This document shows positions 413 to 53,562 of a stretch of 64,000 bases of DNA, piece by piece. The stretch is taken from contig CALIKS010000035.1 of the NCBI GenBank assembly GCA_938017985.1, forward strand, positions 7,146 through 71,145, written 5' to 3'. The stretch is from an uncultured archaeon (GTDB lineage Archaea; Thermoproteota; Nitrososphaeria_A; Caldarchaeales; Calditenuaceae). The stretch's first letter is position 1, and every line of letters begins with the position of its first letter. The notes beneath the pieces are model-generated. The model did not search any database. It was not told the DNA's origin and was given only the letters and a program-made list of their open reading frames with translations. The translations under genes and the position numbers were made by a program.

Positions 413-1582
413 GTGTCTGCTTTTCTGATAGGCGTTGTCTCAGTTTTACTCAGCTACGGCATCTACATCTTCAGCGGTCAGGGAAGCATCTGGGGAATCA
501 CTACCGGAGAATCAAAGATAGGTGGATGGGTCTGGAGACAACTCGGAGCACAAATAGAGCAGTTAAAATACTTCCAGCAGTTCAAGCTAACACCACTACT
601 CGAAGACCCAACGCAACTAGTAGTAATCGCAATACTAATCGGAGGCCTTTCTGCCGCCCTCTTGAGCCGAAGCTACGCATTTAAGCACTTGCCTGGAAAA
701 TACATGCTCGTACAAGCAGTAATTGGTGGATTTCTTCTCGGATACGGTGCCAGGCTTGCCCTTGGATGCAACATTGGAAACTTCTTCTCAGCATGGGCTG
801 CAGGAGGAACACACGCAGTCATATTCACGGCCACGCTCTTGGCCGGCTCATTCATAGGCTTCAAGATAACAGAGAGAATATTCCTAAGAGGAGCCAAGCC
901 CTTCAAATTCAACTATGCACCAAGACAGAATACACAACTATTAACTGGAATCTTAGTATTGGCATTATCTTTGATATTCACCACCACTCTTAAACCAATC
1001 TCCGCTATCTGGTGGCTAGCTGGAATAGCATTCGGCGCACTGGGATGGATTTCAACAATCTGCTTTGCAACATGTTACAGAGACATAATCGCGCCTAAAT
1101 ATGCAAGCGGCATCATGGTCCGCGCCGTTGGAATCGCAATCTTAACCTACGGCTTCGGAATCTTCATACTACAGCTATTAGGAATTCCATTTAAGTTCGG
1201 AACGCCGCCGATTGGACAGCTTCAAGTAGCCCTAGGAGGAGTAATCTTCGGACTCGGAATAGGAATCTCAGGTACATGCATATTCAGCAGCGAGTGGAGA
1301 GCAGGCGGAGGCAGCATATACTCCATGATTGTCTTCGCATCAACAATTCTTCTGGGCATGCCTACGCTGGCATTTCACTATGACTGGTGGCTCACAATAC
1401 TTCCACAAGACCCCAGACCAATAACCCTCTACAGCTACGGACCAATATACGGATTTATCGCTCCACTAATTTTCTCACTCACACTGATTAGCTACGGCAT
1501 CTACGTCGACACATCCATGAGGAATACAATCTCCTCCATAATCACAAACAAGATACCCATAAGAATTCTCAGAAGAGGATAA
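413..1582 (+). CDS. yeeE: YeeE/YedE family sulfur-compound (thiosulfate) transporter
   Basis: 389-aa polytopic membrane protein. Two conserved Cys-containing half-helix motifs (LALGCNIGNFFSAWAAGG and GIGISGTCIFSSEW) are typical of the YeeE/YedE 'sulphur transport' family. GTG start. Paired with the TusA-like gene. Confidence 0.8.
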   Translation: MSAFLIGVVSVLLSYGIYIFSGQGSIWGITTGESKIGGWVWRQLGAQIEQLKYFQQFKLTPLLEDPTQLVVIAILIGGLSAALLSRSYAFKHLPGKYMLVQAVIGGFLLGYGARLALGCNIGNFFSAWAAGGTHAVIFTATLLAGSFIGFKITERIFLRGAKPFKFNYAPRQNTQLLTGILVLALSLIFTTTLKPISAIWWLAGIAFGALGWISTICFATCYRDIIAPKYASGIMVRAVGIAILTYGFGIFILQLLGIPFKFGTPPIGQLQVALGGVIFGLGIGISGTCIFSSEWRAGGGSIYSMIVFASTILLGMPTLAFHYDWWLTILPQDPRPITLYSYGPIYGFIAPLIFSLTLISYGIYVDTSMRNTISSIITNKIPIRILRRG

Positions 1583-1622
1583 AAACCAAATTCATACCAA
1601 TTTTTTATCAAGCCTAAAAAAG

Positions 1623-1772
1623 AAATAATTAATTATGTCAAAACAATTATAAAGATTCATAAACAATATATTATAGAGATGAACAATTCGCTCAACAATA
1701 CAAAAACAATAAAAATAAAACAAGAAGACAAAGTGTTAAGCAATTTTCATGATAAGCCTCCACCTGCTTAAC
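1623..1772 (-). repeat. Intergenic repeat copy A (hairpin plus promoter-like block), inverted relative to copy B at 47667-47843
   Basis: The reverse complement reads GTTAAGCAGGTG...ATGA...TTGCTTAACACTT (stem GTTAAGCA/TGCTTAAC, 1733-1772), then TTTATAATTGTTTTGACATAATTAATTATTT (1653-1623). Identical 12-, 13- and 14-mers are shared with copy B, and the second block matches 27/31. Confidence 0.8.
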
Positions 1773-1791
1773 AAAAAAATAAAGATAAAAC
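1773..1791 (-). terminator. Oligo-T tract directly after the BMP gene stop (putative archaeal terminator)
   Basis: The minus strand reads GTTTTATCTTTATTTTTTT immediately 3' of the stop codon at 1792-1794. Archaeal termination commonly uses T-runs. Confidence 0.4.
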
Positions 1792-3117
1792 CTACCTAGG
1801 AAGCGGAGTCTCAACATACTCTACGTGCCAATCCATCTCCCAAAGCATCTTCCGATCAGCACGCTGTCCAGGACCAATCCTCACATTCCCATCCTGATCC
1901 CTAATAGGCTCACCGAGATTACCCTCAGGCGAGAAAGGCTCAAACACCAACTCCTTCATCTCCTCATAACGCTGCTTAATCTCAAGCTGAGTCTCAGAAG
2001 GAATAGCCGGGTTCAGAGGCGCTAAATAAACAGTACCCTCAGGCTGACCAGCCCTACTCTCCTCGACAGGCATCCTCCACCTCCAGTCCATCATGTCGCC
2101 GATACGCGTCCAGATATCTACCGGCCTCCAACTGTTCGAGAGAATCATCCTGTAAAACTCAGCATAGATAGGAGCCCAATCAACAATCTGTCCAGTCAAA
2201 TGAGCATTAGGACCATACTCCCTCATATCGCTATAATGACTAAAACTCCAAACCCTCCTACCCTTCTTCGTCGTATACTCCTCAGCAACCTGCAAAACAG
2301 TCGGAGTATCCTCAGTATAGGCCAAAACATCAGCACCAGTCTCCTCAATCAAAGCAACAGCAGCATCCCTAGCCTTGGGCGGATCAACCCAAGAAAAGAT
2401 CCAGTTAACATACGCCTTAATATTCCTACCAGTCCTCCTACGATAAGAAACATTAGCACCAAGCACAAACGCATTAATATGCCTCACAACCTCAGGAATC
2501 GGAAAAGCACCAACATAACCAACAACACCACTCTGAGTAACAGCACCAGCAGCCAAACCATTCAGATAATAAAGCTGATAAAACTCAGCAAAAGCAGTAG
2601 AAAGATTCGGCGTCGTCCTGTCAGCACCAGGCGCAGCACCACTCCTATAACCAGAAATATGAACAAAATACTTATCAGGATTCTTCGCAGCAGCCTCAAC
2701 CATCGCATTCATAAAACCAAAACTACAAGCAACGATCAACTCAGCACCCTGAGCCAACAAAGTACTGATGGCGGCAGGAGCACCCTCATCCCTAACATTC
2801 TCGATGTAAGAACTCGACACTCCCGCAACCATCTTATCCGCACTCCGCCTACCATTGTCATGCGCATAAGACCAGCCATAATCCTTCGCAGGCCCAGGAT
2901 AGAAATAGCCAGCCTTAAGAGTCCTAGCCTTCTCGACAGTAACAGACGAGGTAACAACAGAAGTCGAAGTAACGGTAGGAACAGAAGAAACACCCGCATA
3001 ATAACCACCAACACCACCAATCAAACCAGCAGCGACTACGCCGCCTACCGCTGCACCCTTAGCGACGCCGAGAAACTCTCGTCTAGATACTTTCTTACTA
3101 ATCTGAGGTTTACTCAT
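1792..3117 (-). CDS. BMP/PnrA-family ABC substrate-binding protein (nucleoside/sugar type) with twin-arginine signal
   Basis: 441 aa. The N-terminus MSKPQISKKVSRREFLGVAKGAAVGGVVAAGLIGG is an SRRxFLG Tat motif plus h-region, followed by a Thr/Ser/Val linker and a BMP-like body. It lies divergent to the matching ATPase and two permeases. The coding strand is strongly G/T-ending in codon choice. Confidence 0.8.
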   Translation of the reverse strand: MSKPQISKKVSRREFLGVAKGAAVGGVVAAGLIGGVGGYYAGVSSVPTVTSTSVVTSSVTVEKARTLKAGYFYPGPAKDYGWSYAHDNGRRSADKMVAGVSSSYIENVRDEGAPAAISTLLAQGAELIVACSFGFMNAMVEAAAKNPDKYFVHISGYRSGAAPGADRTTPNLSTAFAEFYQLYYLNGLAAGAVTQSGVVGYVGAFPIPEVVRHINAFVLGANVSYRRRTGRNIKAYVNWIFSWVDPPKARDAAVALIEETGADVLAYTEDTPTVLQVAEEYTTKKGRRVWSFSHYSDMREYGPNAHLTGQIVDWAPIYAEFYRMILSNSWRPVDIWTRIGDMMDWRWRMPVEESRAGQPEGTVYLAPLNPAIPSETQLEIKQRYEEMKELVFEPFSPEGNLGEPIRDQDGNVRIGPGQRADRKMLWEMDWHVEYVETPLPR

Positions 3118-3237
3118 CTCGGCGATGAGTTGTCCAAGAACTTATTTATACTTAAGTTGCATCATCATGTAAAATTTCATGGACCAAAACCAAAAATAAA
3201 CGTAATATTGAAATACGGAGAAAGACAGGTCCAAGAC

Positions 3238-4776
3238 GTGGAAGATAACAAGAAAAAAGAAACACTCGTAGAGATGATAGGCATCGTCAAACGCTTCCCA
3301 GGAGTAATAGCAAACGACAACGTGGACTTCACACTTATGCCGGGAGAAGTACACGCATTACTCGGCGAGAACGGAGCAGGAAAGACCACACTCATGAACA
3401 TTTTGTATGGACTCTACCGTCCAGATGCAGGAATGATAAAAATCGAGGGAAAGACCGTGAGTATAAGCTCGCCGAGCAGGGCGATTAAACTAGGCATAGG
3501 CATGGTCCACCAGAACTTCAGACTAATTCCAACACATACGGTAGCCGAGAACGTCATACTTAACTCTCCAAACACTGGTTTCTTTATTAACTGGCAGAAA
3601 ATATACGATGAACTGAAGAAACAAATATCTAAGTATGGATGGAGAATAAATCCTGAAGCGAGAGTATGGCAGCTATCAGCAGGTGAAAAACAGCAAGTAG
3701 AAATCTTAAAGCTTCTCTACAGGGGGTCAAGGATACTTATCTTCGATGAACCTACGAGTGTCCTTACGCCTCAGGAGTCCAGAATGCTATTCACGACGAT
3801 GCGAAAGATGGCTGAGGAGGGGAAGGGCGTAGTTCTCATCACTCATAAGCTTGAGGAGGCACTAAGCGTCAGTGACAGAGTTACAGTGATGAGGAAAGGA
3901 AAAGTAGTCTTGGTTAAGTCAACGTCCATGACTACTCGAGAAGAATTAGCATTAGCCATGATTGGCAGACAAGAGATCACTCAGCTTCCAAGTCAAGGAA
4001 GCTCAAAGCCGAGCGTTCCTATTCTTTCTATAAGAAATCTTGTAGTTGAGGGTGATAAGGAAGAGATTGCGGTTAATGATGCGTCCTTTGATATTTACAA
4101 GGGAGAAATACTCGGAATAGCAGGAGTAAGTGGTAATGGACAAGTCGAACTTGCAGAAGCAATAGCACGGATAAGAAAGATTAAGTCAGGCAAAATTCTG
4201 CTTGAGGGGAGGGACGTATCCTCATACTCACCTCGACAGATGTATGAAAACGGCGTAGCCTACATTCCAGCAGAAGGGGCAAGGACAGGAGTTGTCTCTG
4301 ATTTAACAGTAATGGAAAACATGATTCTTAAGTGTTATCGATACCCACCTTATTCAGACAAACTTTTAATCAAGTGGAGGGAGGCAGCAAAGCTTGCGAA
4401 CATGCTAGTAGAGAAGTATCAGATAGTCGCTCCGAGCATCAATGCGAAGGTAAAGACGTTATCTGGTGGAAATGTACAGCGCTTAGTCCTAGCAAGGGAA
4501 CTTTTAGGAAATCCATTAACAAGTCCAAGGCTAATAATCGCTGTCTATCCGACAAGTGGGCTTGATATAGGCGCCGCCGAATATGTCAGGACTAACCTTA
4601 TAGAGATGCGAAATGAAGGGGCTGGAATACTGTTGATAAGTGAAGATCTCGATGAATTGCTAAGAATGAGTAATAGAATAGCGGTAATGTATGGTGGGAG
4701 AATAGTAGGAGTCTTCGAAGGCAGCCAAGCATCAAAGGAAGTGATAGGCATGCTAATGGCGAGGGGCGCAGGTTAA
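3238..4776 (+). CDS. ABC transporter ATP-binding protein, duplicated ATPase (BMP/simple-sugar type)
   Basis: Two Walker A sites (GENGAGKTT, GVSGNGQVE) and two signatures (LSAGEKQ, LSGGNVQ). The track ORF 2200-4776 is over-extended. The likely start is GTG 3238 (MEDNKKKETLVEMIGIVKRFPG) or ATG 3274. Confidence 0.85.
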   Translation: MEDNKKKETLVEMIGIVKRFPGVIANDNVDFTLMPGEVHALLGENGAGKTTLMNILYGLYRPDAGMIKIEGKTVSISSPSRAIKLGIGMVHQNFRLIPTHTVAENVILNSPNTGFFINWQKIYDELKKQISKYGWRINPEARVWQLSAGEKQQVEILKLLYRGSRILIFDEPTSVLTPQESRMLFTTMRKMAEEGKGVVLITHKLEEALSVSDRVTVMRKGKVVLVKSTSMTTREELALAMIGRQEITQLPSQGSSKPSVPILSIRNLVVEGDKEEIAVNDASFDIYKGEILGIAGVSGNGQVELAEAIARIRKIKSGKILLEGRDVSSYSPRQMYENGVAYIPAEGARTGVVSDLTVMENMILKCYRYPPYSDKLLIKWREAAKLANMLVEKYQIVAPSINAKVKTLSGGNVQRLVLARELLGNPLTSPRLIIAVYPTSGLDIGAAEYVRTNLIEMRNEGAGILLISEDLDELLRMSNRIAVMYGGRIVGVFEGSQASKEVIGMLMARGAG

Positions 4777-34527: not shown

Positions 34528-34579
34528 CAGCTCATTGAAAATATATTTAAAAGCCTCTTTGTTCGTGGTTTATATCGCT

Positions 34580-43112: not shown

Positions 43113-43879
43113 TGAGGTACATGACAAAGTTAGGTAAACACTTCATGAAAGATGAAACAATCCTTAACAAATTAGTTGAATTAGGAGAAATCAAGCCGCA
43201 AGACATCATACTAGAGCCAGGATGCGGCGACGGTAAATTAACCGAAAAACTAGCAAAATTTGGCTGCACGGTCATTGCAATCGATATTGATAAAGAATTA
43301 ATACTTAAAGCGTCAAAAAAATTATCAAGTTGTAGTAATGTTAAATTTTTAACCGGCGACCTTCTCAAGATCAAACCTACAGGTTTTAATAAAGTAATAG
43401 GAAATCCTCCATACTATTTATCCTCACGTCTAATACAGTGGCTAATCACGGGTCCGATGCCAGAATTAATTATCCTAACGCTTCAACGAGAGTTCGCCGA
43501 GAAACTTTGCGCAACGCCAGGTGAAGATAATTACGTTTACATAACAGTACTTTCACAGCTTTTTTACGATATTAAAATTGATGGAATAGTACCTAGCCGG
43601 GCCTTCTACCCACCGCCAAGGGTATCTTCCAGAATAGTAATTATGAGAAGATATTCGTCAATACAAAAAGAGTTACTTAATCATATATGGATACTCCGCA
43701 CACTCTTCACAAAGAAAAGACATTTATTATCAAGAGAACTTAAAAAAATAGGAATAGACACACCGACGCATTTATTAGGCAAGAGAATTTATGAAATTGC
43801 TGTTAAAGACTATTATGATCTGCTACACAGCCTTACACCTAAATATTTAGACAATACTTATATTGCGCATAAAAGTTAG
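43112..43879 (+). CDS. ksgA: 16S rRNA (adenine-N6,N6)-dimethyltransferase KsgA/Dim1
   Basis: LEPGCGDGKLT (SAM) and IGNPPYYLSS. The ATG at 43112 overlaps the upstream TAA (TAATG). The track start at 43073 is unlikely. Confidence 0.88.
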   Translation: MRYMTKLGKHFMKDETILNKLVELGEIKPQDIILEPGCGDGKLTEKLAKFGCTVIAIDIDKELILKASKKLSSCSNVKFLTGDLLKIKPTGFNKVIGNPPYYLSSRLIQWLITGPMPELIILTLQREFAEKLCATPGEDNYVYITVLSQLFYDIKIDGIVPSRAFYPPPRVSSRIVIMRRYSSIQKELLNHIWILRTLFTKKRHLLSRELKKIGIDTPTHLLGKRIYEIAVKDYYDLLHSLTPKYLDNTYIAHKS

Positions 43880-43890
43880 CTAGACAAGAA

Positions 43891-44430
43891 ATGCATGCAA
43901 AAAACTACAGAAAAATAGAGAGGCCATATACACGACAAGAATTCATTCATGGAGCTCCACAGCCAAGACTTGCAAAATATGACTATGGGACTTGGAGAGA
44001 TAGCTATGAATATGAGCTCTCATTGATAGCCGAGACGGATTGCCAAATAAGGGACATAGCCCTAGAATCTGCCAGAGTAACTGCTGGTAAGATGCTTACC
44101 GAAAAATTAGGTGAAAACTTCTACCTCACCATAAAAGTTCACCCACATCATGTCCTCAGGGAAAACAAAATGATCTTTGGAGCCCATGCAGACAGACTCC
44201 AAGAAGGAATGAGCAGGGCGTTTGGCAGACCCATTGGAAGAGCCGCACAAGTCGAGGCTGGAACAAAAGTAATAACTGTAATGGTATTAAGAGACGGTAT
44301 TGAGGCCGCGCGTGAGGCTTTGAAGACTGCTGCAAAGAAATTACCGAAGGGCTATAGAATTGAGGTTATGCCCTTAAAAAAAGAATTAATCAGTAGCAGT
44401 GAAGTAGCAGGTAATTCGTCAGCAGCCTAA
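43891..44430 (+). CDS. rpl10e: 50S ribosomal protein L10e (uL16)
   Basis: RPYTRQEFIHGAPQPRLAKYDYG... is the typical L10e N-terminus. 179 aa. Confidence 0.9.
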   Translation: MHAKNYRKIERPYTRQEFIHGAPQPRLAKYDYGTWRDSYEYELSLIAETDCQIRDIALESARVTAGKMLTEKLGENFYLTIKVHPHHVLRENKMIFGAHADRLQEGMSRAFGRPIGRAAQVEAGTKVITVMVLRDGIEAAREALKTAAKKLPKGYRIEVMPLKKELISSSEVAGNSSAA

Positions 44431-45336
44431 CAATTTACATAATAAAGCAGCTGAAGTATGCATCCTATTCTCTGCCTGATTAATGATTATTGAAGATGGT
44501 CCGTCTGCTACTCTTTCCTCGACCTCTTCTCCCCTCTTCATAGGCATGCAATGCATAAACTTTACATCTGGTTTCGCTAGCCGCATCAGTGTTTCCGTTA
44601 CTTGGTACCGGGGAATAAAGACCTTAAGCTTTATTTCTCTCTCTAATTCTTGTCCCATCGATACAAAAACATCTGTATAGATGAAGTCAGCATCTCTTAC
44701 TGCTACTTCCGGATCATTTGTAAATTCTACTTTTGCCCCAGATAGTTTAGCCCATGAAAATGCCTGAGCCTTAATAGTCTCATCTACTTCATAGCCTCTA
44801 GGCGATGCTACCGAGATATCGACTCCGACTAATGCGCATATCTGTACAAGCGAGTTGCAGACGTTATTGCCGTCTCCTATGTATGCCACCTTTAAACGTT
44901 CTTTATCTCCGCCGTACTCCATCATGGTCATCAGGTCTGCGAGGGCTTGGCATGGATGATGTTTATCAGTAAGTGCATTGATGACAGGTACTGAACTATG
45001 ATTAGCCAATTCCACAATTGTCGAGTGACTAACTACTCTTGCAACTATTGCGTCGACGTATCTGGATAGTACTCTTGCGGTGTCTTTTATTGGTTCTCCT
45101 CTTGAAAGTTGTAGTTCGGTTGATGGTAGGAAGATTGTTTCTCCGCCGAGTTTGTAGATGGCTGAGGTGAATGAGACTCTTGTTCTTGTTGATGGTTTCT
45201 CGAATATTAGTGCTATTATTTTTCCTTTTAGTGCGTTGCTTGGGTAACTGTCTCTCTTGAATTTGAGTGCCAACTTGATGATCTCTAGGACTTCTTCCTT
45301 CTTCATGTTTGAGAATTCTATGAAGTTTTTTTCCAT
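44419..45336 (-). CDS. argF: Ornithine carbamoyltransferase
   Basis: STRTRVSF, HPCQALADL and HCMP motifs. 305 aa. Codon style switches abruptly near 45,060. Confidence 0.9.
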   Translation of the reverse strand: MEKNFIEFSNMKKEEVLEIIKLALKFKRDSYPSNALKGKIIALIFEKPSTRTRVSFTSAIYKLGGETIFLPSTELQLSRGEPIKDTARVLSRYVDAIVARVVSHSTIVELANHSSVPVINALTDKHHPCQALADLMTMMEYGGDKERLKVAYIGDGNNVCNSLVQICALVGVDISVASPRGYEVDETIKAQAFSWAKLSGAKVEFTNDPEVAVRDADFIYTDVFVSMGQELEREIKLKVFIPRYQVTETLMRLAKPDVKFMHCMPMKRGEEVEERVADGPSSIIINQAENRMHTSAALLCKLLGC

Positions 45337-45445
45337 GATTATCGTTTTACTGTCATTTATTGGTCGTATTTATTTCTTAGTCCTTCGATTTGGCTATGCT
45401 GTAAACCTTTACATTTGACTATGTTATCTGTGTTTGGTATCCGTC

Positions 45446-47191
45446 ATGTCGGAGTTTGAGATACGTGGGGCTAGGCTTTCGAGCGATGTGTTGAGGGTGC
45501 TCGGAGCTATCTCTGCTCCTGAGAGGGTTAGGATTCTTTTTATGCTTGAAGGTGGTGGGTTGGGTTATTCTGAGCTTATGAGGGCTGTCGGTATGGTTAG
45601 GCGGAGGGATGTCGGTAGATTTTCTTATCATCTTAGGAGGCTGCTTGAGGCTGGGCTCGTCGAGGTTGATAGGGAGTCTAAGCTTTATAGGCTTAGTGGG
45701 CTTGGTGTCTCGGTCGTTGAGTTGCTTAAGAATCTTTCTCTGAGGGTTGATCTTGGCGGCGTTGTATTTGTGCGGAGGAGTTTTTCTCTTGTTGAGCCGT
45801 TTGATAAGCTTAGGATTGTTGATTCTTTGGTGGCTGAGGCTGGTGTTCCTGCGAGGGTTGCTGGTAGGATTGCGAGTAGGGTTGAGAATGCTTTAGTTGG
45901 GCTGGGTCTCAGTACTGTTGATTCGAGTGTTATTCGTTGTCTTGTTGGTTATGAGCTTTTGAGTCGGGGTCTTGGTGGTTATTTTTTGAGGTATTTCTTG
46001 GTTGGTCCTAGCATGTATGAGGTTTCTCAGGCGGTTAGGAGGGGGCTTGGGAGTGGTGATTCTCTGCTTGTTGAGGAGACGATTGTGAGTGATGTTTTGG
46101 GTCGTTATGTGTTTAGGAGGGTTTTGCCGAGGGAGCTTGTTGAGTGTTGTTATGACGGATTGGTTGAGCTTTATCGTCCTGATTCTTGGATTAATGCTTT
46201 TTTGGGTTTTGGGTTGTTGTCTGAGTCTCGGAGTGTTGGTATTGATGAGTTGTTTTCTGCGTTGTTGCGTTTTAGGATGGTTAGGGATGAGGTGGTCGTT
46301 GCTGGTCAGTCTGTTTCTTGGAATGTTGTTGATAGGCTTGTTGAGTTGTTGAGGGGGGTTCGTTTTGGTTCTGCTGGACTATATGTTTGTTCTCGTGCTG
46401 ATTTGCTTAGTGGTAGGTTGGGGATGTTGGAGGGGCTTGTGGCTCGTGAGGACTTGATGTGTTCTTATTCGTTGCTGGATGGTTATGTGAGTCTCTCTCG
46501 GCTCGCTGATGGGTTGGTGCTTTTTAATTCGTTTGGTAGGCTTGGTGTCGGCGGGTCTTCTAGAGTCGTTGTGGGTGGGCTGTTCGGTGTTAATGTTGGA
46601 GGCATATTTCTTAGGAGTGAGGGCCGCGTGAATCTTGTCTTGTCTAGGCTTGGTGAGTTGTTGCGGCATGTTCTTCAGGCAGTTATGCGGAGGCATGGCT
46701 TCTTGGACAGGTTGCATCGAGAGTTGGGTGGTGTGCCTTGTTATTATTTTGTGGCTCCTGTCGGTCTTAGGGAGGTCTTAGGCGTGGTGGGTTCTGGTGG
46801 GTCGTCGAGCGAGGCGTCGAGGTTTCTTAGGGATGTTCTGTCTGTTTTTAGGGATGTTCTGTCTGGTTCTTCTGGGAAGAGGTTGAAGATTGTGACGGCT
46901 TCTGTGTGGCCTAGTGTTGTCTCTGAGAGTCTCTTTAAGCGTGATGTTGCGTCTCTTGGTTCTCAAGTTGTTTCGAGGGTTTTGGGGGGTGTTGGTGGAT
47001 ATTCTAACTGCTTGTTTGATTTTTCGTGTCCTGGCCTCGAGGAGACCATCCATGAGGTTGCTGGTTATTTTGACGCTGGGCTTGTTGTTCCTGTTGATCT
47101 TTCATTGGCTGGGGCTCGTGAGTCTCTTGGTAGGCTCTACGAGATGCTTGGTCTGGCTGATAATTTAGTCTTGAGGCTTAGGCGGTCTTAG
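45446..47191 (+). CDS. ArsR-type wHTH + ATP-cone + degenerate NrdD-like domain protein (uncharacterised architecture)
   Basis: wHTH: VLRVLGAISAPERVRILFMLEGGGLGYSELMRAV...FSYHLRRLLEAGLVEVDRESKLYRLS. ATP-cone: VFVRRSFSLVEPFDKLRIVDSLVAEAGVPARVAGRIASRVENAL...SSVIRCLVGYELLSRG. The segment VLPRELVECCYDGLVELYRPDSW parallels NrdD LLPRDVVQAHERGDIHYHDLDYS. Start is ATG 45446 or TTG 45434. Caveat: the region is so A-poor that all six frames are open. Confidence 0.65.
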   Translation: MSEFEIRGARLSSDVLRVLGAISAPERVRILFMLEGGGLGYSELMRAVGMVRRRDVGRFSYHLRRLLEAGLVEVDRESKLYRLSGLGVSVVELLKNLSLRVDLGGVVFVRRSFSLVEPFDKLRIVDSLVAEAGVPARVAGRIASRVENALVGLGLSTVDSSVIRCLVGYELLSRGLGGYFLRYFLVGPSMYEVSQAVRRGLGSGDSLLVEETIVSDVLGRYVFRRVLPRELVECCYDGLVELYRPDSWINAFLGFGLLSESRSVGIDELFSALLRFRMVRDEVVVAGQSVSWNVVDRLVELLRGVRFGSAGLYVCSRADLLSGRLGMLEGLVAREDLMCSYSLLDGYVSLSRLADGLVLFNSFGRLGVGGSSRVVVGGLFGVNVGGIFLRSEGRVNLVLSRLGELLRHVLQAVMRRHGFLDRLHRELGGVPCYYFVAPVGLREVLGVVGSGGSSSEASRFLRDVLSVFRDVLSGSSGKRLKIVTASVWPSVVSESLFKRDVASLGSQVVSRVLGGVGGYSNCLFDFSCPGLEETIHEVAGYFDAGLVVPVDLSLAGARESLGRLYEMLGLADNLVLRLRRS

Positions 47192-47197
47192 CTCCTT

Positions 47198-47599
47198 CTA
47201 CTGCCTTGACGTTTTTAGGGCTAGGATGGCTTTTGCGAGGTCTCCTTCTGCCTCGATGAGTGCTGCCTTTGCTTGTTCTTCGGTTACGCCTGCCTGCATT
47301 GCTACGATTGTTATGTCTTCTGGCGATGGCTCGTATGTTGTTGGCTTGGCTTCTATTTGCTGTGTTTCTTCTGTTTCTTCGCCGCCGATTATCTGGTAGA
47401 CTTTTCCTGCTGCTGTGTCTAGCGTGATGATGCTTGGATTGTTTATTCTTATTATTTTGTCGGTGAGTGTTATTGTGACTTCTTTTGCGGTTCCGAGTTC
47501 TTTCATCGAGACGCCTAGGCTGCTCATCATTCGGTCCTGCATTCTTCTTAGGTCTCTCGGTCCTAGACGTAGCGTTTTCTTCAATTGTTTTGACACCAT
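47198..47599 (-). CDS. nac: Nascent polypeptide-associated complex protein (NAC alpha homologue) with UBA domain
   Basis: NAC domain (MSSLGVSMKELGTAKEVTITLTDKIIRINNPSIITLD...YQIIG) and C-terminal UBA (EDITIVAMQAGVTEEQAKAALIEAEGDLAKAIL). Confidence 0.88.
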   Translation of the reverse strand: MVSKQLKKTLRLGPRDLRRMQDRMMSSLGVSMKELGTAKEVTITLTDKIIRINNPSIITLDTAAGKVYQIIGGEETEETQQIEAKPTTYEPSPEDITIVAMQAGVTEEQAKAALIEAEGDLAKAILALKTSRQ

Positions 47600-47666
47600 T
47601 CTTATTCTTGTCGGGGTATGCTTTATCTGTTTTGCTAATTGTGATGGAAATTTACTAGTAGGTGGT

Positions 47667-47843
47667 GGTGTTAAGCAGGTGATTTTTTATGATTTTTGCT
47701 TAACACTTAGTTCTCTTTCTATTTGGTTTTTCTGGGTATTGCTGCGCCTTAGTGGATTTGTAGCCTCTGCTATTTTTTGACTTCATTCCTACCTAGTAAT
47801 CTGTATTACATTTTTATATTGATTTTGAGATAATTAATTATTT
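47667..47843 (+). repeat. Intergenic repeat copy B (10-bp-stem hairpin plus TATA/promoter-like block)
   Basis: GTGTTAAGCA-ggtgattttttatgatttt-TGCTTAACAC (47667-47705), then TTTATATTGATTTTGAGATAATTAATTATTT (47813-47843). It is homologous to the inverted copy at 1623-1772. Confidence 0.8.
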
Positions 47844-47933
47844 GTTTCTCATTTGTCGTATGTCTGTGTATTTCACGGTATAGGTTATATTTATAAGGTA
47901 TTTTTTTCAGACTTTGTTTTTAGGGGCTCATAT

Positions 47934-49193
47934 TTGACGAGTATTTCTGACCTGAAGGTTATAATTCCTGTTGGTGGTGAGGCGAAACGTCTCAAGCCCC
48001 TTACTGCAGAGGTCTCGAAGGCGCTTGTAAGGTTCATGAACATGCCTCTTGTCGAGCATGCTATGGTCAAGCTTGCATGTCAAGGAGTTAGAGAATTTAT
48101 TTTTGGGGTTAAGGGCTATGTTAACTATAAGAGCCTCTATGATTATTTCCAAGAGGGTGAGGGCTTCTCGTCTAAGCATAATCTGAGTCATAATGTGCGT
48201 ATTTTTTATCAGCCCAACATTGACGATTTAGGCAGTGCAGACTCGGTGAGGTTGAATTTAGAGTATTATGATATTAATGATTACTTAATGGTTATTCAGG
48301 GCGATAATGTATTTGACATTGACCTTAGCGATGCGTTCTCTTTTCATGTCGAGAAGGGTGCGCTTATGACTATTGCTCTTACTCGTGTCTTGGATGTCGA
48401 GAGGTATGGCATAGCAGAAATGGATGAAGACATGAGGATTCGTAGGTTTATCGAGAAGCCGAGGAGGGGAGAGACCTCATCAAGCCTCGCAAATACTGGA
48501 ATATACATTATCTCTCCAGAGATTCGTAAAATTCTTTCAGGAGAAAAAGTGTCGAGGATTATGAGCGAGAGGAGGAGACTTGACTTTGGAATGGATTTAA
48601 TACCAATGCTCGTTGAAGAAGGATATCCTATCTATGGATATCCACTGCGGGCCGAGTGGTACGACGTCGGTACGCCCGAGACATACCTAGAATCAATGAT
48701 AAAGCTGCTTAAGAGTAGTAACGCATCCAAGTATCTAGGCGATACAGTGGACTCGTCCAGTAAACTATGGATTCAGACACATGACTCGGAGGATAATAAG
48801 AATAGGGAATCACTCATCAAGAAGATTAGGGACGGTAAAATAAGAATCGAGGGAGCAGCGCTCATAGGTAGACACTGCCAAATAGGCGACAATGTCGTAA
48901 TAAAGGATTCATGCATTGATAACTTCTCTATCATTCTCGACGATGCAGTAGTTGAGAGGTCAGCGATACTTGACAGGGTAATCATTGGCAAAGCGGCTCA
49001 GATACGTGATAGCATAGTCTCGAGACACGTAAAAATATTATCTTCCAGAAACAATCCCACGATGGTTGGAGATATCAGCGTCATCGGCGACGACGTCTGG
49101 GTTAGTGAGGGATGTGCAATAGTCGGGACAAAGATTTATCCACATCTACATATTCCTCCGAATAGTCGTCTCGTGAATGAGACGATTACGTGA
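47934..49193 (+). CDS. Sugar-phosphate nucleotidyltransferase with C-terminal left-handed beta-helix domain
   Basis: KVIIPVGGEAKRLKPLT (GxGxRL-type motif) with hexapeptide-repeat-like C-terminal segments. I prefer TTG 47934, because the track start at 47853 adds 27 non-conserved residues. Confidence 0.75.
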   Translation: MTSISDLKVIIPVGGEAKRLKPLTAEVSKALVRFMNMPLVEHAMVKLACQGVREFIFGVKGYVNYKSLYDYFQEGEGFSSKHNLSHNVRIFYQPNIDDLGSADSVRLNLEYYDINDYLMVIQGDNVFDIDLSDAFSFHVEKGALMTIALTRVLDVERYGIAEMDEDMRIRRFIEKPRRGETSSSLANTGIYIISPEIRKILSGEKVSRIMSERRRLDFGMDLIPMLVEEGYPIYGYPLRAEWYDVGTPETYLESMIKLLKSSNASKYLGDTVDSSSKLWIQTHDSEDNKNRESLIKKIRDGKIRIEGAALIGRHCQIGDNVVIKDSCIDNFSIILDDAVVERSAILDRVIIGKAAQIRDSIVSRHVKILSSRNNPTMVGDISVIGDDVWVSEGCAIVGTKIYPHLHIPPNSRLVNETIT

Positions 49194-49252
49194 ATAATCG
49201 CTACTTGTTCTGCATAGACTAGAATAAATATGGGGAAGGTATAGCTATATTT

Positions 49253-49651
49253 GTGGCATCATTCCAGAATAGGCGCAATACTGTCAAGGCGAGGCAGCCT
49301 ACACCCCCGAGACCAAGGCAAAAAACAAACATTATTGAGCGTGTCGAGAGATACGAGTTTGTTGATGGCTACGGAGAAATCATTAGAAAGGCCAGGGAGA
49401 GGCTCGGCCTTACGAGGGAGGAGCTTGGGGCACTAATACAGGACAAGGCATCAGTCATCAAGAAGATAGAGAACGAGGAGCTCAAGCCTACGATAGAACT
49501 TGCAAAAAAGATTGAGAAGGCATTGAAGGTAAAGATTCTTGTCGAGGTATCTGAAGAGGTTGAGGAGCTCTTTAAACCCCAGTATCCTAAATCCAAGCCT
49601 TCAGGACTAACATTAGGCGACCTGTTTAAGCATCAAGAATCAGAGAAATAA
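49253..49651 (+). CDS. mbf1: MBF1-type HTH (XRE family) protein lacking the N-terminal zinc ribbon
   Basis: GEIIRKARERLGLTREELGALIQDKASVIKKIENEELKPTIELAKKIEKAL is the MBF1 cro/C1 HTH. The N-terminus is basic/Pro-rich with no Cys. GTG start ~25 nt after an A/T box. Confidence 0.75.
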   Translation: MASFQNRRNTVKARQPTPPRPRQKTNIIERVERYEFVDGYGEIIRKARERLGLTREELGALIQDKASVIKKIENEELKPTIELAKKIEKALKVKILVEVSEEVEELFKPQYPKSKPSGLTLGDLFKHQESEK

Positions 49652-49689
49652 TGGTTTAAAATCAGCTAGACATATTTGAGAATGAAAAG

Positions 49690-50961
49690 GTGGGAGGGAC
49701 GAGGGGCAGGGTAGCCATCGTTCACAGGGCGCTTCCATGGGAAGAGCCAAACCTAGACGAGCTTGAAGAATTATGCAGCACGGCGGGCTACGAGGTTGTC
49801 TATAGACTATTCCAGAGACGCTACCCACACCCCGAGTATAACATCGGCCCATCCAAGCTATCAGAGCTTAAACAGGCAGTCAGAAAGCTCGGAATAACGA
49901 AGGTCATATTCGAGAACGAGCTCAGACCGCTGCAGGAATACAACTTGGCAAAGGAACTCTCCGTCGAGATAATGACTAGGCTCAGACTCATACTCGAGAT
50001 ATTCACCCAGCACGCGTCAAACCTCGAGGCAAAGCTTCAGATAAAGCTCGCAGAACTAAAATACGAACTACCGAGGGCGAAGGAGAAGGTCAAGCTAGCC
50101 AAACGTGGAGAGCAGCCGGGTTTCCACGGCCTAGGAGCCTACGAGGCAGACGTCTACTACGAGGAGATCAATAGAAGGATACATAAACTATCCGGGAAGC
50201 TAGAGGAGATAAAGAAGAAGAAGCTGAGGGCAAATATTCAGAGAAGAGTTGAGGGAATACCGATAATCTCGCTCGCAGGCTACACAAACGCTGGAAAATC
50301 CACGCTATTCAACGCAATCACGGGCTACGAGGTTGATGTCTCGCCGCAAATGTTCACGACGCTCTCGACGAAGAGAAGAATAGCACGGATAGATGGGAAG
50401 CCTGCATACATCTCCGACACAGTCGGATTCATCAGGAACGTCCCAACCCTACTCATCTCGTCATTCATGTCGACCCTTATGGAGATAGCTGAGGCGGACC
50501 TAATACTCCTCGTCCTAGACGTCTCCGAGCCGCCTGAGAACGTGCTGAATAAACTAGAAGCCTCACTCAGCATCCTGAGACAGATAGGCGTCACCAGCAC
50601 ACCCATAATACTCGTACTAAACAAGATAGACATCGCTTCACTCCAGAACATCGAGGAAGTCAAGGAGAAGATAGGCCAGAGCTACCCGACAATAGCCATC
50701 TCGGCGAAGAATAAAGAAAATATCGATGGGCTGCATCTCTTGGTCTCCCACTACCTGAACAGCTACGTCGCCTTCAGGGCAAGCCTCACACTAAGCGAGG
50801 AGGCAGAGAGACTAGTAAGGCAGACATACCTCAAGGGAAGAATAATCAACCTCCAGTACATGGACAACAAGATCATGATAGAGGCAGAGGCACCAATAGT
50901 AGTCGCAGAAAAAATAAAGAAGTTCTCAGAGCCAGAAGAATTCATAATAGTCAAGAGATGA
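49690..50961 (+). CDS. hflX: GTPase HflX
   Basis: HflX N-domain, G-domain (GYTNAGKSTLFN, DTVGFI, NKID). GTG start. Confidence 0.88.
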   Translation: MGGTRGRVAIVHRALPWEEPNLDELEELCSTAGYEVVYRLFQRRYPHPEYNIGPSKLSELKQAVRKLGITKVIFENELRPLQEYNLAKELSVEIMTRLRLILEIFTQHASNLEAKLQIKLAELKYELPRAKEKVKLAKRGEQPGFHGLGAYEADVYYEEINRRIHKLSGKLEEIKKKKLRANIQRRVEGIPIISLAGYTNAGKSTLFNAITGYEVDVSPQMFTTLSTKRRIARIDGKPAYISDTVGFIRNVPTLLISSFMSTLMEIAEADLILLVLDVSEPPENVLNKLEASLSILRQIGVTSTPIILVLNKIDIASLQNIEEVKEKIGQSYPTIAISAKNKENIDGLHLLVSHYLNSYVAFRASLTLSEEAERLVRQTYLKGRIINLQYMDNKIMIEAEAPIVVAEKIKKFSEPEEFIIVKR

Positions 50962-51111
50962 CTAAATCAAGAGCCCAAGATAGATTAGGAGCGATAACTC
51001 GACCAAGAGCAAGACCAGTAGCAGGATTATGCCAGGACTGAGACGCCTCATCCAGCTCTGCCTCACATTCACAAAAAGAAGGCCTACTGCCCAAGATAAT
51101 AGTATTATGGG

Positions 51112-51238
51112 TCTAGAATTTAGAAGAATCTCGTTGAATAATTTCTAAAATATTCTAGAAATACTGCTTTGGCTTAAGATTCCTAGAATTTCCTTGGATT
51201 TTCCTAAATTTTCCTCTGCGTGGGCTAGAGATATATAT
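51112..51238 (+). promoter_or_regulatory. Repeat-rich putative operator/promoter region
   Basis: Three (T/C)CTAGAA cores (51112, 51154, 51182). Three helically phased A(A/T)TTTCC repeats end at 51193, 51204 and 51214. An ATATATAT box at 51231-51238 lies ~25 nt before the GTG at 51262. Confidence 0.45.
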
Positions 51239-51261
51239 CGCTGAGGGCATTGATATGATTT

Positions 51262-51426
51262 GTGGCGGTATTCAGGAAGGAGGACCTCTACTGGGAAAGG
51301 CTCAGGGGACCATCGCTAATAATGCCATCAGACATCGAGCACCTAGTACGCGAAGTACAGCTACTAAAGGCCGAGGTACAGAAGATAAAAAAGGCACTGG
51401 AGGAGAGAGGCATCAAGATAGACTAG
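51262..51426 (+). CDS. Small (54-aa) coiled-coil protein, unannotated frame
   Basis: GTG 51262: (M)AVFRKEDLYWERLRGPSLIMPSDIEHLVREVQLLKAEVQKIKKALEERGIKID*. It has an amphipathic heptad-like C-half and looks leaderless from the upstream TATA box. The competing track ORF 51255-51449 is low-complexity. Confidence 0.45.
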   Translation: MAVFRKEDLYWERLRGPSLIMPSDIEHLVREVQLLKAEVQKIKKALEERGIKID

Positions 51427-51973
51427 GCAGGTCTCTGAAGAGTGTCTGAATAAGCGGCCTAAGCATCCTCGCGACCAACAGAGTCCTCTCGAGGTCAGTC
51501 CTGCAGTGATTAATGATTAGTCTCCTGCGACTCCTACTACCCGAGAGATACTCGGAGTAGAGCCTAGGAACGTCTATGCCCCCGTATTCCTCCTCATGCC
51601 TAATTCCTAGGAACCTGCATACTGACTGGAGGCTGTTCGAGCTGAGCCTAAGATGATTCCTCGAGACCTCCATCATGTCTATGTGCCTAGCCTCGAATAG
51701 TGGCGATGAGTCGACCCTAAGCCTCACGCATCTACTGACCATGAAGGGGACGTCGAATCCCAGTCCTCCCCAAGTGAAGTAGATGTTTACGCCGCGGAAA
51801 AACTCCATGAATTCCCTCAGAACCAGTTTCTCAGCGCTCGGGTTCTTGACGAAGTATATCTTCATCCTCCCATTGTAGAAGTCTGCCAGGCCTATGCATA
51901 CGACTTGGCCGGAGTCCGCGTGGAGACTATTTGTCTCGATGTCCAGCACGTATACACTGGGCCTCAGGCTCAA
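51413..51973 (-). CDS. RNase H-fold 3'-5' exonuclease-like protein (YprB/PolB-exo-like)
   Basis: VYVLDIETNSL (DxE), ...FTWGGLGFDVPF... and HCRTDLERT follow the DEDD-type exonuclease pattern. Confidence 0.65.
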   Translation of the reverse strand: MSLRPSVYVLDIETNSLHADSGQVVCIGLADFYNGRMKIYFVKNPSAEKLVLREFMEFFRGVNIYFTWGGLGFDVPFMVSRCVRLRVDSSPLFEARHIDMMEVSRNHLRLSSNSLQSVCRFLGIRHEEEYGGIDVPRLYSEYLSGSRSRRRLIINHCRTDLERTLLVARMLRPLIQTLFRDLPSLS

Positions 51974-52043
51974 CTCAGAGACAATAATTACTCGAGGTAA
52001 TTATCCTTTAATTCATGCCTCGAATAACACCTTATCTTCAGAT

Positions 52044-52505: not shown

Positions 52506-52579
52506 GATTCTTAGGATTTAAGACATTCCTTAATGTTTAAAGCCGAGATTGATGATTAATTAATTGTTGGCTGATTAGT

Positions 52580-53512: not shown

Positions 53513-53562
53513 TTCAAAGTATATTATAATCAGTGTTTATGTAGTTTAAGCAGTGACGGGGC

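What the first reader, a model, noticed from the sequence alone, without database searches (positions are those of the whole stretch)
45060..48400. ~3.3-kb island in which the + strand is extremely G+T-rich regardless of coding strand
Seen:
- From ~45,060 to ~48,400 the + strand is depleted in A and C. Hand counts give 45601-45660 = A9 C10 G22 T19, and 46201-46260 = A5 C5 G21 T29.
- The + strand gene 45446-47191 uses almost only G/T-ending codons (GTT, GGT, CTT, TCT, AGG, GAG).
- The minus-strand sequences inside the island (nac, and the first ~90 codons of argF) are correspondingly A/C-rich on their own coding strand.
- Stop codons and their complements all need A on this strand, so all six frames are open. 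Track ORFs 46089-46352, 46379-46717, 46778-47053, 46914-47168 and 47415-47780 reflect this.
- The bias fades through the 5' half of the 47934-49193 gene. By 49.3-51 kb the + strand genes are A/C-rich and T-poor.
- Weaker alternation of A/C-ending and G/T-ending codon patches is visible by eye elsewhere, for example inside ppsA.

Inference: this is a regional, strand-specific mutational pressure equivalent to C>T plus A>G on the + strand, which is the deamination spectrum of exposed single-stranded DNA. It does not look like codon selection, because it ignores gene orientation and gene borders. Possible sources are persistent unidirectional transcription or R-loops, replication asymmetry combined with recombination between strains carrying opposite orientations, or an assembly chimera.
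Basis: partly seen in the sequence, partly recalled or inferred. Interest (0 to 1): 0.7.

Follow-up and report, generated by a model that had tools for sequence, protein, structure and literature searches.

The report
Conserved strand-skew island in hot-spring archaeon
A 3.4-kb stretch of this uncultured hot-spring archaeon's chromosome has had one DNA strand stripped of A and C at neutral sites, whichever way the genes point. Related species have held this state at the same locus over long evolutionary time, and it sits next to a small repeated control element that also marks a second, mirror-image island.

Summary
Window 45034-~48460 has a + strand (G+T-A-C)/N of +0.39, which is z=9 against other windows. 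At four-fold degenerate sites the + strand is A .03, C .08, G .25, T .63, and this holds in + and - genes alike.

It is not an artefact, a recent hypermutation or replication skew:
- An independent assembly matches the window.
- Four or more species-level relatives carry the same island at the same syntenic place.
- Their neutral sites have turned over as much as in the flanks, yet they keep the same composition.
- One subclade is losing the island.
- An outgroup with the same gene order has none.

Purines fall from .50 to .28, so C>T plus A>G is not enough; changes towards T by transversion are also needed.

New findings:
- A mirror-polarity island lies at <=413-~3420.
- Both islands hold one copy of a ~175-230-nt cassette: the nac TATA box, a GTTAAGCA/TGCTTAAC palindrome, and a TATA plus ATAATTAATTAT operator.
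- The cassette has the same orientation relative to the T/G-rich strand in both.
- Cassette integrity tracks island strength across about 12 loci.

Best reading: a locus-fixed, strand-asymmetric mutation pressure linked to the cassette and probably coupled to transcription. Its polarity and the sharp edge inside argF are unexplained.

The parts
45034..48460 (+). Island 1, in which the + strand is T/G-rich. There is a plateau at neutral sites from 45034 to ~47930 and a weaker fading tail to ~48460.
   Evidence: The maximum-scoring segment is 45075-47982, and the argF third-position change point is at 45034.
44419..45336 (-). argF (ornithine carbamoyltransferase). Only codons 1-~100 (45034-45336) lie in the island, and the protein motifs are intact.
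   Evidence: Pfam PF02729 and PF00185. Keto fraction at third positions is .88 inside the island and .52 outside. The edge falls at codon ~100-107 in L083 and L085-87 as well.
45337..45445 (.). Divergent argF/wHTH promoter region. It holds the conserved GGATTTATTT box (45366) and a CCTTAACATTAAG-like box (45406-45419).
   Evidence: Alignment of 6 species. Composition is T .49, A .17.
45446..47191 (+). Core gene encoding a winged-helix (ArsR/DUF7347) domain, an ATP-cone and a degenerate NrdD-like domain. It evolves fast, is rich in G, V, F and R, and is poor in K, T, I and N.
   Evidence: Pfam. Distant homologues carry PF03477 and PF13597. dN/dS is 0.21-0.40.
47198..47599 (-). nac (nascent polypeptide-associated complex). 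Its coding strand is extremely A/C-rich, with a four-fold keto skew of -0.75.
47615..47843 (+). Cassette copy 1.
- Box A, GGTATGCTTTATCTGTT (47615-47631), is the nac TATA box read on the - strand.
- Palindrome GTTAAGCA-N19-TGCTTAAC lies at 47670-47704.
- A T-run cluster follows.
- TATA TTTATATT lies at 47813-47820.
- Palindromic operator ATAATTAATTAT lies at 47830-47841.
47934..49193 (+). NTP-transferase / hexapeptide gene. Its first ~170 codons carry the fading tail of the island.
   Evidence: In L083 the tail reaches codon ~300.
413..3420 (-). Island 2, with mirror polarity: the - strand is T/G-rich. It covers the Sulf_transp gene 413-1582(+), the Bmp/PnrA-type binding-protein gene 1792-3117(-) and the first ~60 codons of the ABC ATPase (from ~3223). 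It may run off the window start.
   Evidence: Bmp four-fold sites on the + strand are A.68 C.19 G.09 T.05.
1623..1797 (-). Cassette copy 2. Box A overlaps the Bmp stop codon, the palindrome lies at 1772-1735, and the TATA and ATAATTAATTAT operator lie at 1636-1625. The order along the T/G-rich strand is the same as in copy 1.
   Evidence: (pairs I1 and I2).

Best explanation
The island is the equilibrium product of a locus-fixed, strand-asymmetric mutation pressure. On one strand A and C are continually replaced by G and, above all, T. The equivalent description is that the complementary strand is repeatedly refilled with A and C.

The pressure acts on every site. Conserved proteins (argF, nac) resist it at replacement sites. 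The less constrained wHTH/ATP-cone/NrdD-like gene has been dragged to a G/V/F/R-rich protein.

I infer that the pressure emanates from the ~175-230-nt cassette, which holds two divergent promoters and a palindrome and sits in both islands in the same orientation relative to the skew. I also infer that it is coupled to transcription through the region.

Two polarities are possible, and I cannot separate them.

(a) Classical. The T/G-rich strand is the non-template strand of dominant transcription that runs wHTH -> cassette -> ntp in island 1 and Bmp -> cassette in island 2. This strand is left unpaired or unrepaired at high temperature. It then accumulates A>G, A>T and C>T, as in vertebrate and bacterial transcription-associated asymmetry.

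(b) Inverted. The strong nac-type promoter of the cassette fires into the plateau, and the T/G-rich strand is its template.

Shown: the composition, its orientation independence, its maintenance at equilibrium, its loss in one subclade, its absence in the outgroup, and the link to the cassette. Inferred: that the pressure is mutational, that the cassette is causal, and that transcription is involved.
For: **1. Neutral-site signature.** It is identical in + and - genes and in three species: A.02-.03 C.09-.10 G.24-.29 T.59-.64. Noncoding DNA is skewed too.

**2. Active maintenance.** Residual identity at four-fold sites between the window, L082 and L083 is .15-.24 in the island and .02-.27 in the flanks.

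**3. Lineage variation.**
- The L085/L087 subclade is decaying. On the + strand it shows G>A 79 and T>C 67 against A>G 9 and C>T 22. Recent SNPs show the same pattern.
- The syntenic outgroup L093 has none.

**4. Signs of a mutational rather than a selective origin.**
- The plateau is uniform.
- There is no context dependence.
- Amino-acid composition shifts in complementary directions in wHTH and nac.
- dN/dS is raised to .21-.40.
- SNP density is 1.2-1.7 times that of the flanks. Selection for a preferred state would give about 0.5 times. A model in which the other strand is merely protected would give 0.1-0.3 times.

**5. The cassette.**
- It is the best inverted-repeat pair in the 64 kb.
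- Its 21-mer occurs exactly twice, against 0.03 expected.
- Its order along the T/G-rich strand is the same in both islands, and the plateau lies on the box-A side in both.
- It is intact in the strong-island genomes, degenerate or truncated in the decaying ones, and absent in L093.
- It is absent at Bmp in L094, L095 and L218-L221, and none of these has an island there.
- Copy 2 shares a 12-mer with the window's own copy 1 that L082 and L083 lack. It therefore arose inside this lineage, after which Bmp went from the ordinary -0.15 to -0.32 to +0.82.

**6. Sign and spectrum.** They match known transcription-associated asymmetry, in which the non-template strand gains T and G, with A>G, A>T and C>T in excess (PMC2927911).

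**7. Other observations.**
- The skew steps down where eight T5+ runs cluster, at 47683-47917.
- The + strand carries 48 G3+ runs and no C3+ runs.
Against: - No single sign rule fits both cassette promoters. Box A fires into the plateau with the A/C-rich strand as RNA sense. P2 fires away from it with the T/G-rich strand as RNA sense. Yet both sides have the same polarity.
- The sharp edge at 45034 lies inside argF, about 400 bp upstream of the wHTH start. No conserved TATA box and no T-run is found there.
- For polarity (a):
  - A T7 run at 45326 and nine T5-T6 runs should terminate archaeal transcription.
  - The housekeeping gene nac would have to be out-transcribed by its antisense.
  - Bmp's own transcription gives no skew in four relatives that lack the cassette.
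- For polarity (b):
  - The sign is opposite to every characterised case.
  - argF transcription must continue past the point where the skew stops.
- In another Caldarchaeales genome (L096/L097), skew blocks end in the middle of genes and differ between two genes of one operon. No such cassette is found there.
- There are no expression data.
- The link between cassette and island rests on about 3-4 independent phylogenetic contrasts.
Confidence: 0.45

Rival explanations
1. One strand is exposed as single-stranded DNA by a process other than transcription. The cassette palindrome could act in three ways:
- as a polar barrier to replication forks;
- as a nick or strand-displacement site;
- as a local, R-loop-primed initiation site.

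The T/G-rich strand would then repeatedly be the unpaired strand, either as lagging-strand template or as displaced strand. Its complement would be resynthesised on a heat-damaged template. This resembles the heavy strand of animal mitochondrial DNA.
For: - The skew ignores genes and operons, and it ends in the middle of genes.
- The polarity is the same on both sides of the cassette, as expected for something passing through in one direction.
- Orientation-independent four-fold skew is the mitochondrial signature (own knowledge).
- The A-rich complement fits insertion of A opposite damaged bases.
- In L096 the sign flips from - to + at ~2650, as at a bidirectional start.
Against: - No origin features, no cdc6/orc1 gene and no HUH nuclease gene are seen in the region, although not every gene of the window was annotated.
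- No mirror skew is seen left of 45034, so this is not a bidirectional origin.
- The sharp edge lies 2.6 kb from the palindrome, not at it.
- C should be more depleted than A if simple hydrolytic chemistry ruled, yet A is the rarest base (the chemistry is own knowledge).
- No episomal or viral copy of the segment was found.
Confidence: 0.2
2. Selection acts on strand composition itself. Candidate targets are:
- an A/C-rich, unstructured - sense RNA;
- a zone free of TATA-like sequences, terminators and stop codons;
- a GT-rich strand preferred by a binding or recombination protein.

The proteins have had to accommodate this.
For: - The feature is conserved in place for a very long time.
- - sense RNA is nearly unstructured, at -13 against -31 kcal/mol per 150 nt.
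- TATA-like hexamers are three times rarer in the island.
- T5+ runs are absent from the Bmp sense strand, 0 against 3.1 expected.
Against: - It would need effective selection at about a thousand individual neutral sites, holding A at 3%, uniformly across four unrelated genes and the spacers.
- SNP density is higher than in the flanks, not lower.
- The state was lost without any visible gene loss in the L085/L087 subclade.
- It damages the wHTH protein, whose dN/dS is raised and whose composition is extreme.
Confidence: 0.12
3. A single or recent hypermutation event caused it: a DNA deaminase, chemical damage to imported single-stranded DNA, or a patch from a diversity-generating element.
For: - The patch is of kilobase scale and is confined to one strand.
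- The left edge is sharp.
- Blocks in L096 form a patchwork.
Against: - Neutral sites have turned over about as much as in the flanks, yet three lineages keep the same composition.
- The proteins are still under purifying selection.
- There is no sequence-context signature.
- The edge is conserved among species.
Confidence: 0.02
4. An ordinary cause explains it: replication skew of a replichore, an inverted segment, a horizontally acquired island with foreign codon usage, or an assembly or sequencing artefact.
For: - Keto skew is the classical sign of the bacterial leading strand (own knowledge).
- Contigs of one metagenome break inside the island.
Against: - The skew returns to baseline on both sides, and the baseline replication component is about 0.03.
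- Gene order and orientation are conserved, including in the island-free outgroup.
- The genes are housekeeping genes, and one of them (argF) is only partly inside.
- An independent Logan assembly differs by 2 of 11796 bases.
- The island is seen in JGI, NCBI, ENA and Logan data from different samples.
Confidence: 0.03

Closest known systems
Transcription-associated strand asymmetry of mammalian and vertebrate genes, and C deamination on the non-transcribed strand in E. coli (PMC2927911)
   Same: - The non-template strand gains T and G.
- A>G, A>T and C>T exceed their complements.
- There is a step at the 5' end, a plateau, and decay beyond the 3' end.
- The state is an equilibrium, not an event.
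   Different: - The amplitude is at least about 10 times larger. TA skew is ~0.9 and GC skew ~0.5 at neutral sites, against about 0.06-0.1 or less for GC skew in that paper.
- It is confined to a few loci rather than seen in all genes.
- It covers genes of both orientations.
- It starts ~400 bp upstream of the only sense gene.
- The rest of this genome shows the opposite, weak coding-strand sign.
Heavy/light strand asymmetry of animal mitochondrial DNA (own knowledge)
   Same: - One strand is G+T-rich at four-fold sites, regardless of gene orientation.
- It is attributed to damage to the strand that spends time unpaired.
- Protein composition is dragged along.
   Different: - Here the feature is a 3.4-kb patch of a chromosome.
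- A, not C, is the most depleted base.
- T, not G, takes the gain.
- No replication origin is known here.
GC-skewed, R-loop-forming promoter-proximal regions and immunoglobulin switch / hypermutation zones (own knowledge; mentioned in PMC2927911)
   Same: - G clusters lie on one strand only, 48 against 0.
- The zone is of kilobase scale and is tied to a promoter element.
- A>G, A>T and A>C are biased to the non-transcribed strand in somatic hypermutation.
   Different: - No deaminase hotspot context is seen.
- The state is heritable and at equilibrium, not somatic.
- The would-be RNA is U-rich, which disfavours stable hybrids.
Replication-associated GC/TA skew of bacterial chromosomes (PMC3269012, PMC12999951: titles and abstracts)
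   Same: G>C and T>A on one strand, visible at third codon positions.
   Different: - It is local, not replichore-wide.
- It returns to baseline on both sides.
- Archaeal genomes, including this window, show little such skew.
NrdR-type regulation of nucleotide metabolism through an ATP-cone (own knowledge). This bears on the core gene only.
   Same: The core protein joins a DNA-binding domain to an ATP-cone. The shared palindromes sit at genes for a nucleoside-type binding protein and a nucleotidyl transferase.
   Different: - It has a winged-helix domain instead of a zinc ribbon, and it carries a degenerate NrdD body.
- No binding has been shown.
- The link to the skew is speculative.

Membership tests
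Replication-associated strand skew | The skew extends along a replichore and changes sign only at the origin or terminus. | tested here: not met
   The feature is a 3.4-kb bump that returns to baseline on both sides. The strand component of the baseline is about 0.03.
Replication-associated strand skew | Inverted segments carry the opposite sign. | tested here: not met
   Gene order and orientation are identical in all relatives and in the island-free outgroup.
Transcription-associated mutational asymmetry | There is an excess of T and G on one strand at neutral sites, with A-depleting and C-depleting changes. | tested here: met
   Four-fold sites are A.03 C.08 G.25 T.63. Compare PMC2927911.
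Transcription-associated mutational asymmetry | The borders coincide with a transcription unit, and the T/G-rich strand is its non-template strand. | tested here: inconclusive
   - It fits wHTH, Bmp and the 5' part of ntp.
- It is contradicted by nac, the 5' part of argF and Sulf_transp.
- No promoter motif is found at 45034.
- No RNA data are available.
Transcription-associated mutational asymmetry | The strength scales with the transcription level. | not testable with these tools
   This needs strand-specific metatranscriptomes.
Mitochondrial-type asymmetry from single-strand exposure | The four-fold skew is independent of gene orientation. | tested here: met
Mitochondrial-type asymmetry from single-strand exposure | A gradient follows the time spent single-stranded, counted from a defined origin. 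| tested here: inconclusive
   One edge is a step and the other side fades, but no origin is known.
Enzymatic or episodic hypermutation (deaminase, DGR, RIP-like) | Sequence-context preference, and a recent state that is not at equilibrium. | tested here: not met
   There is no dependence on the 5' or 3' neighbour. Neutral sites have turned over while the composition is kept.
Horizontally acquired genomic island | Foreign gene content or mobility genes, and absence from relatives. | tested here: not met
   The genes are housekeeping genes, synteny is conserved, and argF is only partly inside.
Translational codon-usage selection | The bias follows the coding strand and respects gene borders. 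| tested here: not met
   The sign is opposite on the coding strands of neighbouring genes, there is a step in the middle of a gene, and noncoding DNA is skewed.
Assembly or sequencing artefact | The feature is not reproducible in independent assemblies or samples. | tested here: not met

The most novel reading that the evidence does not exclude
A portable cis-element of about 200 nt (two divergent promoters plus a palindrome) acts as an orientation-dependent local 'mutator'. Wherever it sits, it imposes a strand-specific mutation regime on several kilobases of flanking chromosome.

Its duplication to a new site, downstream of Bmp, created a second island within this lineage. Its decay in a sister subclade is letting the first island relax.
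Probability: 0.3. Interest if true: 0.9.

Novelty: new variant of a known kind. Interest (0 to 1): 0.75.

Why it matters
- **Strength of the effect.** If the reading holds, a local strand-asymmetric mutation regime can be strong enough to fix the composition of neutral sites, with A at 3%. It can also remodel a protein: G and V double, K and T fall about 8-fold, and identity is 60% where neighbouring proteins keep about 80%. It persists at one locus across speciation.
- **A testable handle.** The regime appears tied to a small sequence element that can be moved. That offers a way to study how transcription, R-loops or fork stalling shape mutation in hyperthermophilic archaea, for which I found no such local islands described in the paper searches made here.
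- **Practical consequences.**
  - All six frames are open in such islands, so gene callers err. The 858-aa ORF 2200-4776 is partly spurious, and nac is replaced by an antisense ORF in one contig.
  - Assemblies break inside them.
  - Pfam misses domains in the remodelled protein.
  - Phylogenies and composition-based binning of these segments will be biased.

Tried and rejected
- **Structure prediction.** The AlphaFold model of the core protein had a mean pLDDT of 45 and was unusable, so no fold search was run.
- **GTDB genome scan with argF.** The best hit had 63% identity and no close relative turned up.
- **Episomal or viral copy.**
  - Searches of viral contigs with the protein, and of plasmids and phages with the DNA, found nothing.
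  - A viral-contig scan with the bare palindrome gave only unspecific hits.
- **Promoter or terminator at the sharp edge.** I found no conserved TATA box, no T-run, and no motif shared among four block edges.
- **T-run avoidance in the wHTH gene.** There is none: 7 observed against 7.4 expected.
- **'Core gene always lies on the T/G-rich strand'.** A block in L096 is made only of genes on the A/C-rich strand.
- **'Sharp 5' edge and fading 3' tail' as a general rule.** It holds for the two window islands. It does not clearly hold for the L096 patchwork.
- **Cassette-like repeats in L096.** None were found.
- **Rfam.** There is no RNA family in either island.
- **Look-up of a protein encoded in L095.** I got round this through a homologue search.
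- **Literature.** I found no description of such local islands in archaea.

Full report

Yes. Both hand counts are exact. Region 45060-48400 is A518 C506 G980 T1337, so (G+T-A-C)/N = +0.387. The whole window gives -0.01. No other 3341-nt window exceeds +0.063, and z = 9.2.

- ribosomal L10e, 43891-44430(+);
- argF/OTCase, 44419-45336(-);
- a 581-aa winged-helix gene, 45446-47191(+);
- nac, 47198-47599(-);
- an NTP-transferase, 47934-49193(+).

The five 'track ORFs' exist, and they reflect the lack of stop codons in all six frames.

**2. What exactly is skewed?**

I built a gene list and looked only at four-fold degenerate sites.

| Set of sites, read on the + strand | A | C | G | T | n |
|---|---|---|---|---|---|
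| + genes in the island | .03 | .10 | .24 | .63 | 331 |
| - genes in the island | .03 | .07 | .27 | .64 | 105 |
| Baseline | .28-.35 | .18-.22 | .16-.22 | .27-.32 | |

- The two intergenic stretches are also T .49, A .17-.19.
- The pressure therefore acts on DNA strands, not on codons.
- Purines drop from .50 to .27-.30. A and C are not simply turned into G and T by transitions; there is a strong net flow to T.
- The residual A and C show no dependence on their 5' or 3' neighbour.

**3. Borders**

- At third codon positions the left border is a step inside argF at 45034. The 2-logL interval is 45031-45055, and the keto fraction goes from .52 to .88.
- The plateau runs at about .75-.9 through the first 100 codons of argF, the wHTH gene and nac.
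- The skew then steps down after the spacer, where eight T5+ runs cluster at 47683-47917. It fades within the first ~170 codons of the NTP-transferase gene.

**4. Artefact or recent event?**

*Not an artefact*
- An independent Logan assembly (ERR9287632) equals window 43541-55336 except for 2 bases.
- The wHTH protein has ten relatives of 59-65% identity, all with the same odd composition.
- I fetched their contigs from NCBI, JGI, ENA and Logan. All have the gene order L10e-argF-wHTH-nac.
- All show the same bump, with a peak of +0.35 to +0.64. The argF edge falls at codon ~100-107 in several of them.

*Not a relic*
- Between the window, L082 and L083, four-fold sites retain only .15-.24 of their identity signal in the island. 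The flanks retain .02-.27.
- All three species nevertheless sit at A.02-.03 C.09-.10 G.24-.29 T.59-.64.
- The state is therefore actively maintained in each lineage.

*Variation among lineages*
- In the L085/L087 subclade the island is weaker.
- Polarised substitutions show it decaying. On the + strand there are G>A 79 and T>C 67, against A>G 9 and C>T 22. Recent SNPs show the same.
- A more distant relative (L093, GC 59%) has the same gene order and no island.
- About 150 distant homologues of the protein have ordinary composition.

**5. The core gene**

- Distant homologues carry a wHTH domain, an ATP-cone and an anaerobic ribonucleotide reductase (NrdD) domain. The window protein is a shortened, degenerate member of that family.
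- It is a real gene: dN/dS is 0.21-0.40, and there are almost no indels.
- It evolves faster than its neighbours. G, V and F are about doubled, and K, T and I are reduced 4-8-fold.
- nac is pushed the opposite way.

**6. Mutation or selection?**

- SNP density between near-identical genomes is 1.2-1.7 times higher in the island than in the flanks.
- Long-term turnover is similar inside and outside the island.
- A regime in which the other strand is merely protected would give 0.1-0.3 times the flank rate. Selection for T/G would give about 0.5 times. Raised forward rates would give about 1.5-2 times.
- The data favour raised forward rates, though the relaxed constraint on the wHTH gene contributes to them.
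- The remaining evidence also points to mutation pressure:
  - the plateau is uniform;
  - the complementary drag on proteins is costly;
  - one subclade lost the state without visible consequence.

**7. A second island and a shared element**

*The second island*
- At neutral sites the window holds a second island of mirror polarity from <=413 to ~3420.
- The Bmp/PnrA-type gene 1792-3117(-) has + strand four-fold composition A.68 C.19 G.09 T.05.
- The convergent Sulf_transp gene 413-1582(+) has A.50 C.27 G.07 T.16.

*The cassette*
- The best inverted-repeat pair of the whole 64 kb joins the two islands. It is a cassette of ~175-230 nt with 71% identity.
- The cassette contains:
  - box A, which is the TATA box of nac read on the other strand and lies 25 nt from the nac ATG;
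  - the palindrome GTTAAGCA-N19-22-TGCTTAAC;
  - a T-rich stretch;
  - a consensus TATA (TTTATATT or TTTATAAT);
  - the palindrome ATAATTAATTAT.
- A 21-mer from it occurs exactly twice, against 0.03 expected.
- Read along the T/G-rich strand, the order is the same in both islands. The plateau lies on the box-A side in both.

*Cassette and island across loci*
- The cassette is intact in the strong-island genomes.
- It is degenerate in L087 and truncated in L085/86, which are the decaying ones.
- It is absent in L093.
- It is absent next to Bmp in L094, L095 and L218-L221. There Bmp has the ordinary polarity.

*Origin of copy 2*
- Copy 2 shares a 12-mer with the window's own copy 1 that L082 and L083 lack.
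- It therefore arose inside this lineage.
- This looks like a natural transplantation experiment. It is the main reason to think the cassette is causal.

**8. Mechanism**

The sign and spectrum equal the known transcription-associated asymmetry. There the non-template strand gains T and G, and A>G, A>T and C>T are in excess (PMC2927911). The amplitude here is at least about ten-fold larger.

The shape is also the shape of such skews: a step, a plateau, and a step-down at a terminator-like T-run cluster.

I therefore favour a pressure that is linked to the cassette and coupled to transcription. The fit is imperfect, for these reasons:
- The two cassette promoters diverge, yet both sides have the same polarity.
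- The sharp edge lies inside argF, with no promoter or terminator motif.
- The + strand contains T5-T7 runs.
- Bmp's own transcription gives no skew in relatives that lack the cassette.

The inverted reading is that the nac-type promoter fires into the plateau, with the T/G-rich strand as its template. It explains the transplantation result and the position of the plateau. It has the 'wrong' sign, and it cannot explain why the skew stops inside argF. I rate the two polarities as roughly equal.

Processes other than transcription that pass through in one direction remain possible. Examples are a polar fork barrier at the palindrome and nick-primed strand displacement.

**9. Generality**

- Another Caldarchaeales genome (L095-L097) shows a patchwork of blocks of 0.9-3.9 kb of either sign in a glycosylation cluster.
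- These blocks end in the middle of genes. They differ between two genes of one operon.
- Their polarity is conserved between two species, but their amplitude differs.
- No cassette of this kind is found there.
- Local strand-skew domains therefore seem common in this group. The cassette link is so far shown only for the window's lineage.

**10. Verdict**

- The kind of phenomenon, strand-asymmetric mutation, is known. I have not found the following described:
  - this amplitude;
  - this locality;
  - this persistence;
  - the association with a movable element.
- The organism is an uncultured member of the Nitrososphaerota close to the Aigarchaeota/Caldarchaeales. I infer this from the source names of homologues.

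Noticed in passing
window 413-3420: There is a second skew island of mirror polarity, with the - strand T/G-rich at four-fold sites. The real gene there is Bmp/PnrA 1792-3117(-). The first ~340 codons of the 858-aa ORF 2200-4776(+) are a spurious antisense reading frame, and the ABC ATPase starts near 3223.
   Followed up: yes
window 47615-47843 and 1623-1797: A shared cassette occurs exactly twice in the window. The half-sites CTTAAC/GTTAAG also occur in the wHTH promoter box (45406-45419; CCTTAACATTAAG in relatives), and CTTAAG lies just upstream of the Bmp TATA box (3151-3156). This suggests one regulator, possibly the wHTH/ATP-cone protein itself, acting on a small nucleotide-related regulon.
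   Followed up: partly
window 34424-34527: Rfam finds an intron-containing tRNA (58.9 bits) that ARAGORN misses. It overlaps the listed start of ORF 34481-35725 (a zinc alcohol dehydrogenase), so that ORF probably starts further downstream.
   Followed up: no
window 50000-51500: The 3' half of the HflX-type GTPase gene is unusually A/C-rich at four-fold sites on the + strand (-0.40 to -0.56, against a baseline of -0.15). The same trend appears in relatives. This may be a weak block of opposite sign just beyond the island.
   Followed up: partly
L091/L092 (Ga0105162), L089, L084, L085/L086: The islands cause assembly and annotation problems. Two contigs of one metagenome break inside the wHTH gene. 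In L084 the gene caller replaced nac by an antisense ORF. In L085/L086 argF is called 16 codons short.
   Followed up: partly
L096 and L097, from position ~10936 onward: Two assemblies of different species-level genomes (GCA_041641295.1 and GCA_009889515.1; their epimerases are 91% identical) give identical per-gene statistics from ~10.9 kb to the end of the locus. This suggests a recently exchanged segment next to a diverged one inside a glycosylation cluster.
   Followed up: no
L096 1748-2590 versus 820-1761: Two overlapping genes of one ABC-transporter operon differ sharply in four-fold skew, -0.70 against -0.20. The sign flips to + within about 100 bp at ~2650, next to a TATA-like TTTAATATA.
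   Followed up: partly
L083 171-1055: A LAGLIDADG-type homing endonuclease gene lies upstream of the ribosomal and RNA polymerase subunit genes in one relative. It is absent from the window.
   Followed up: no
window 36858-36893 and 39880-39915: A 36-nt direct repeat with 75% identity, spaced 3022 nt apart. It may be a chance match.
   Followed up: no
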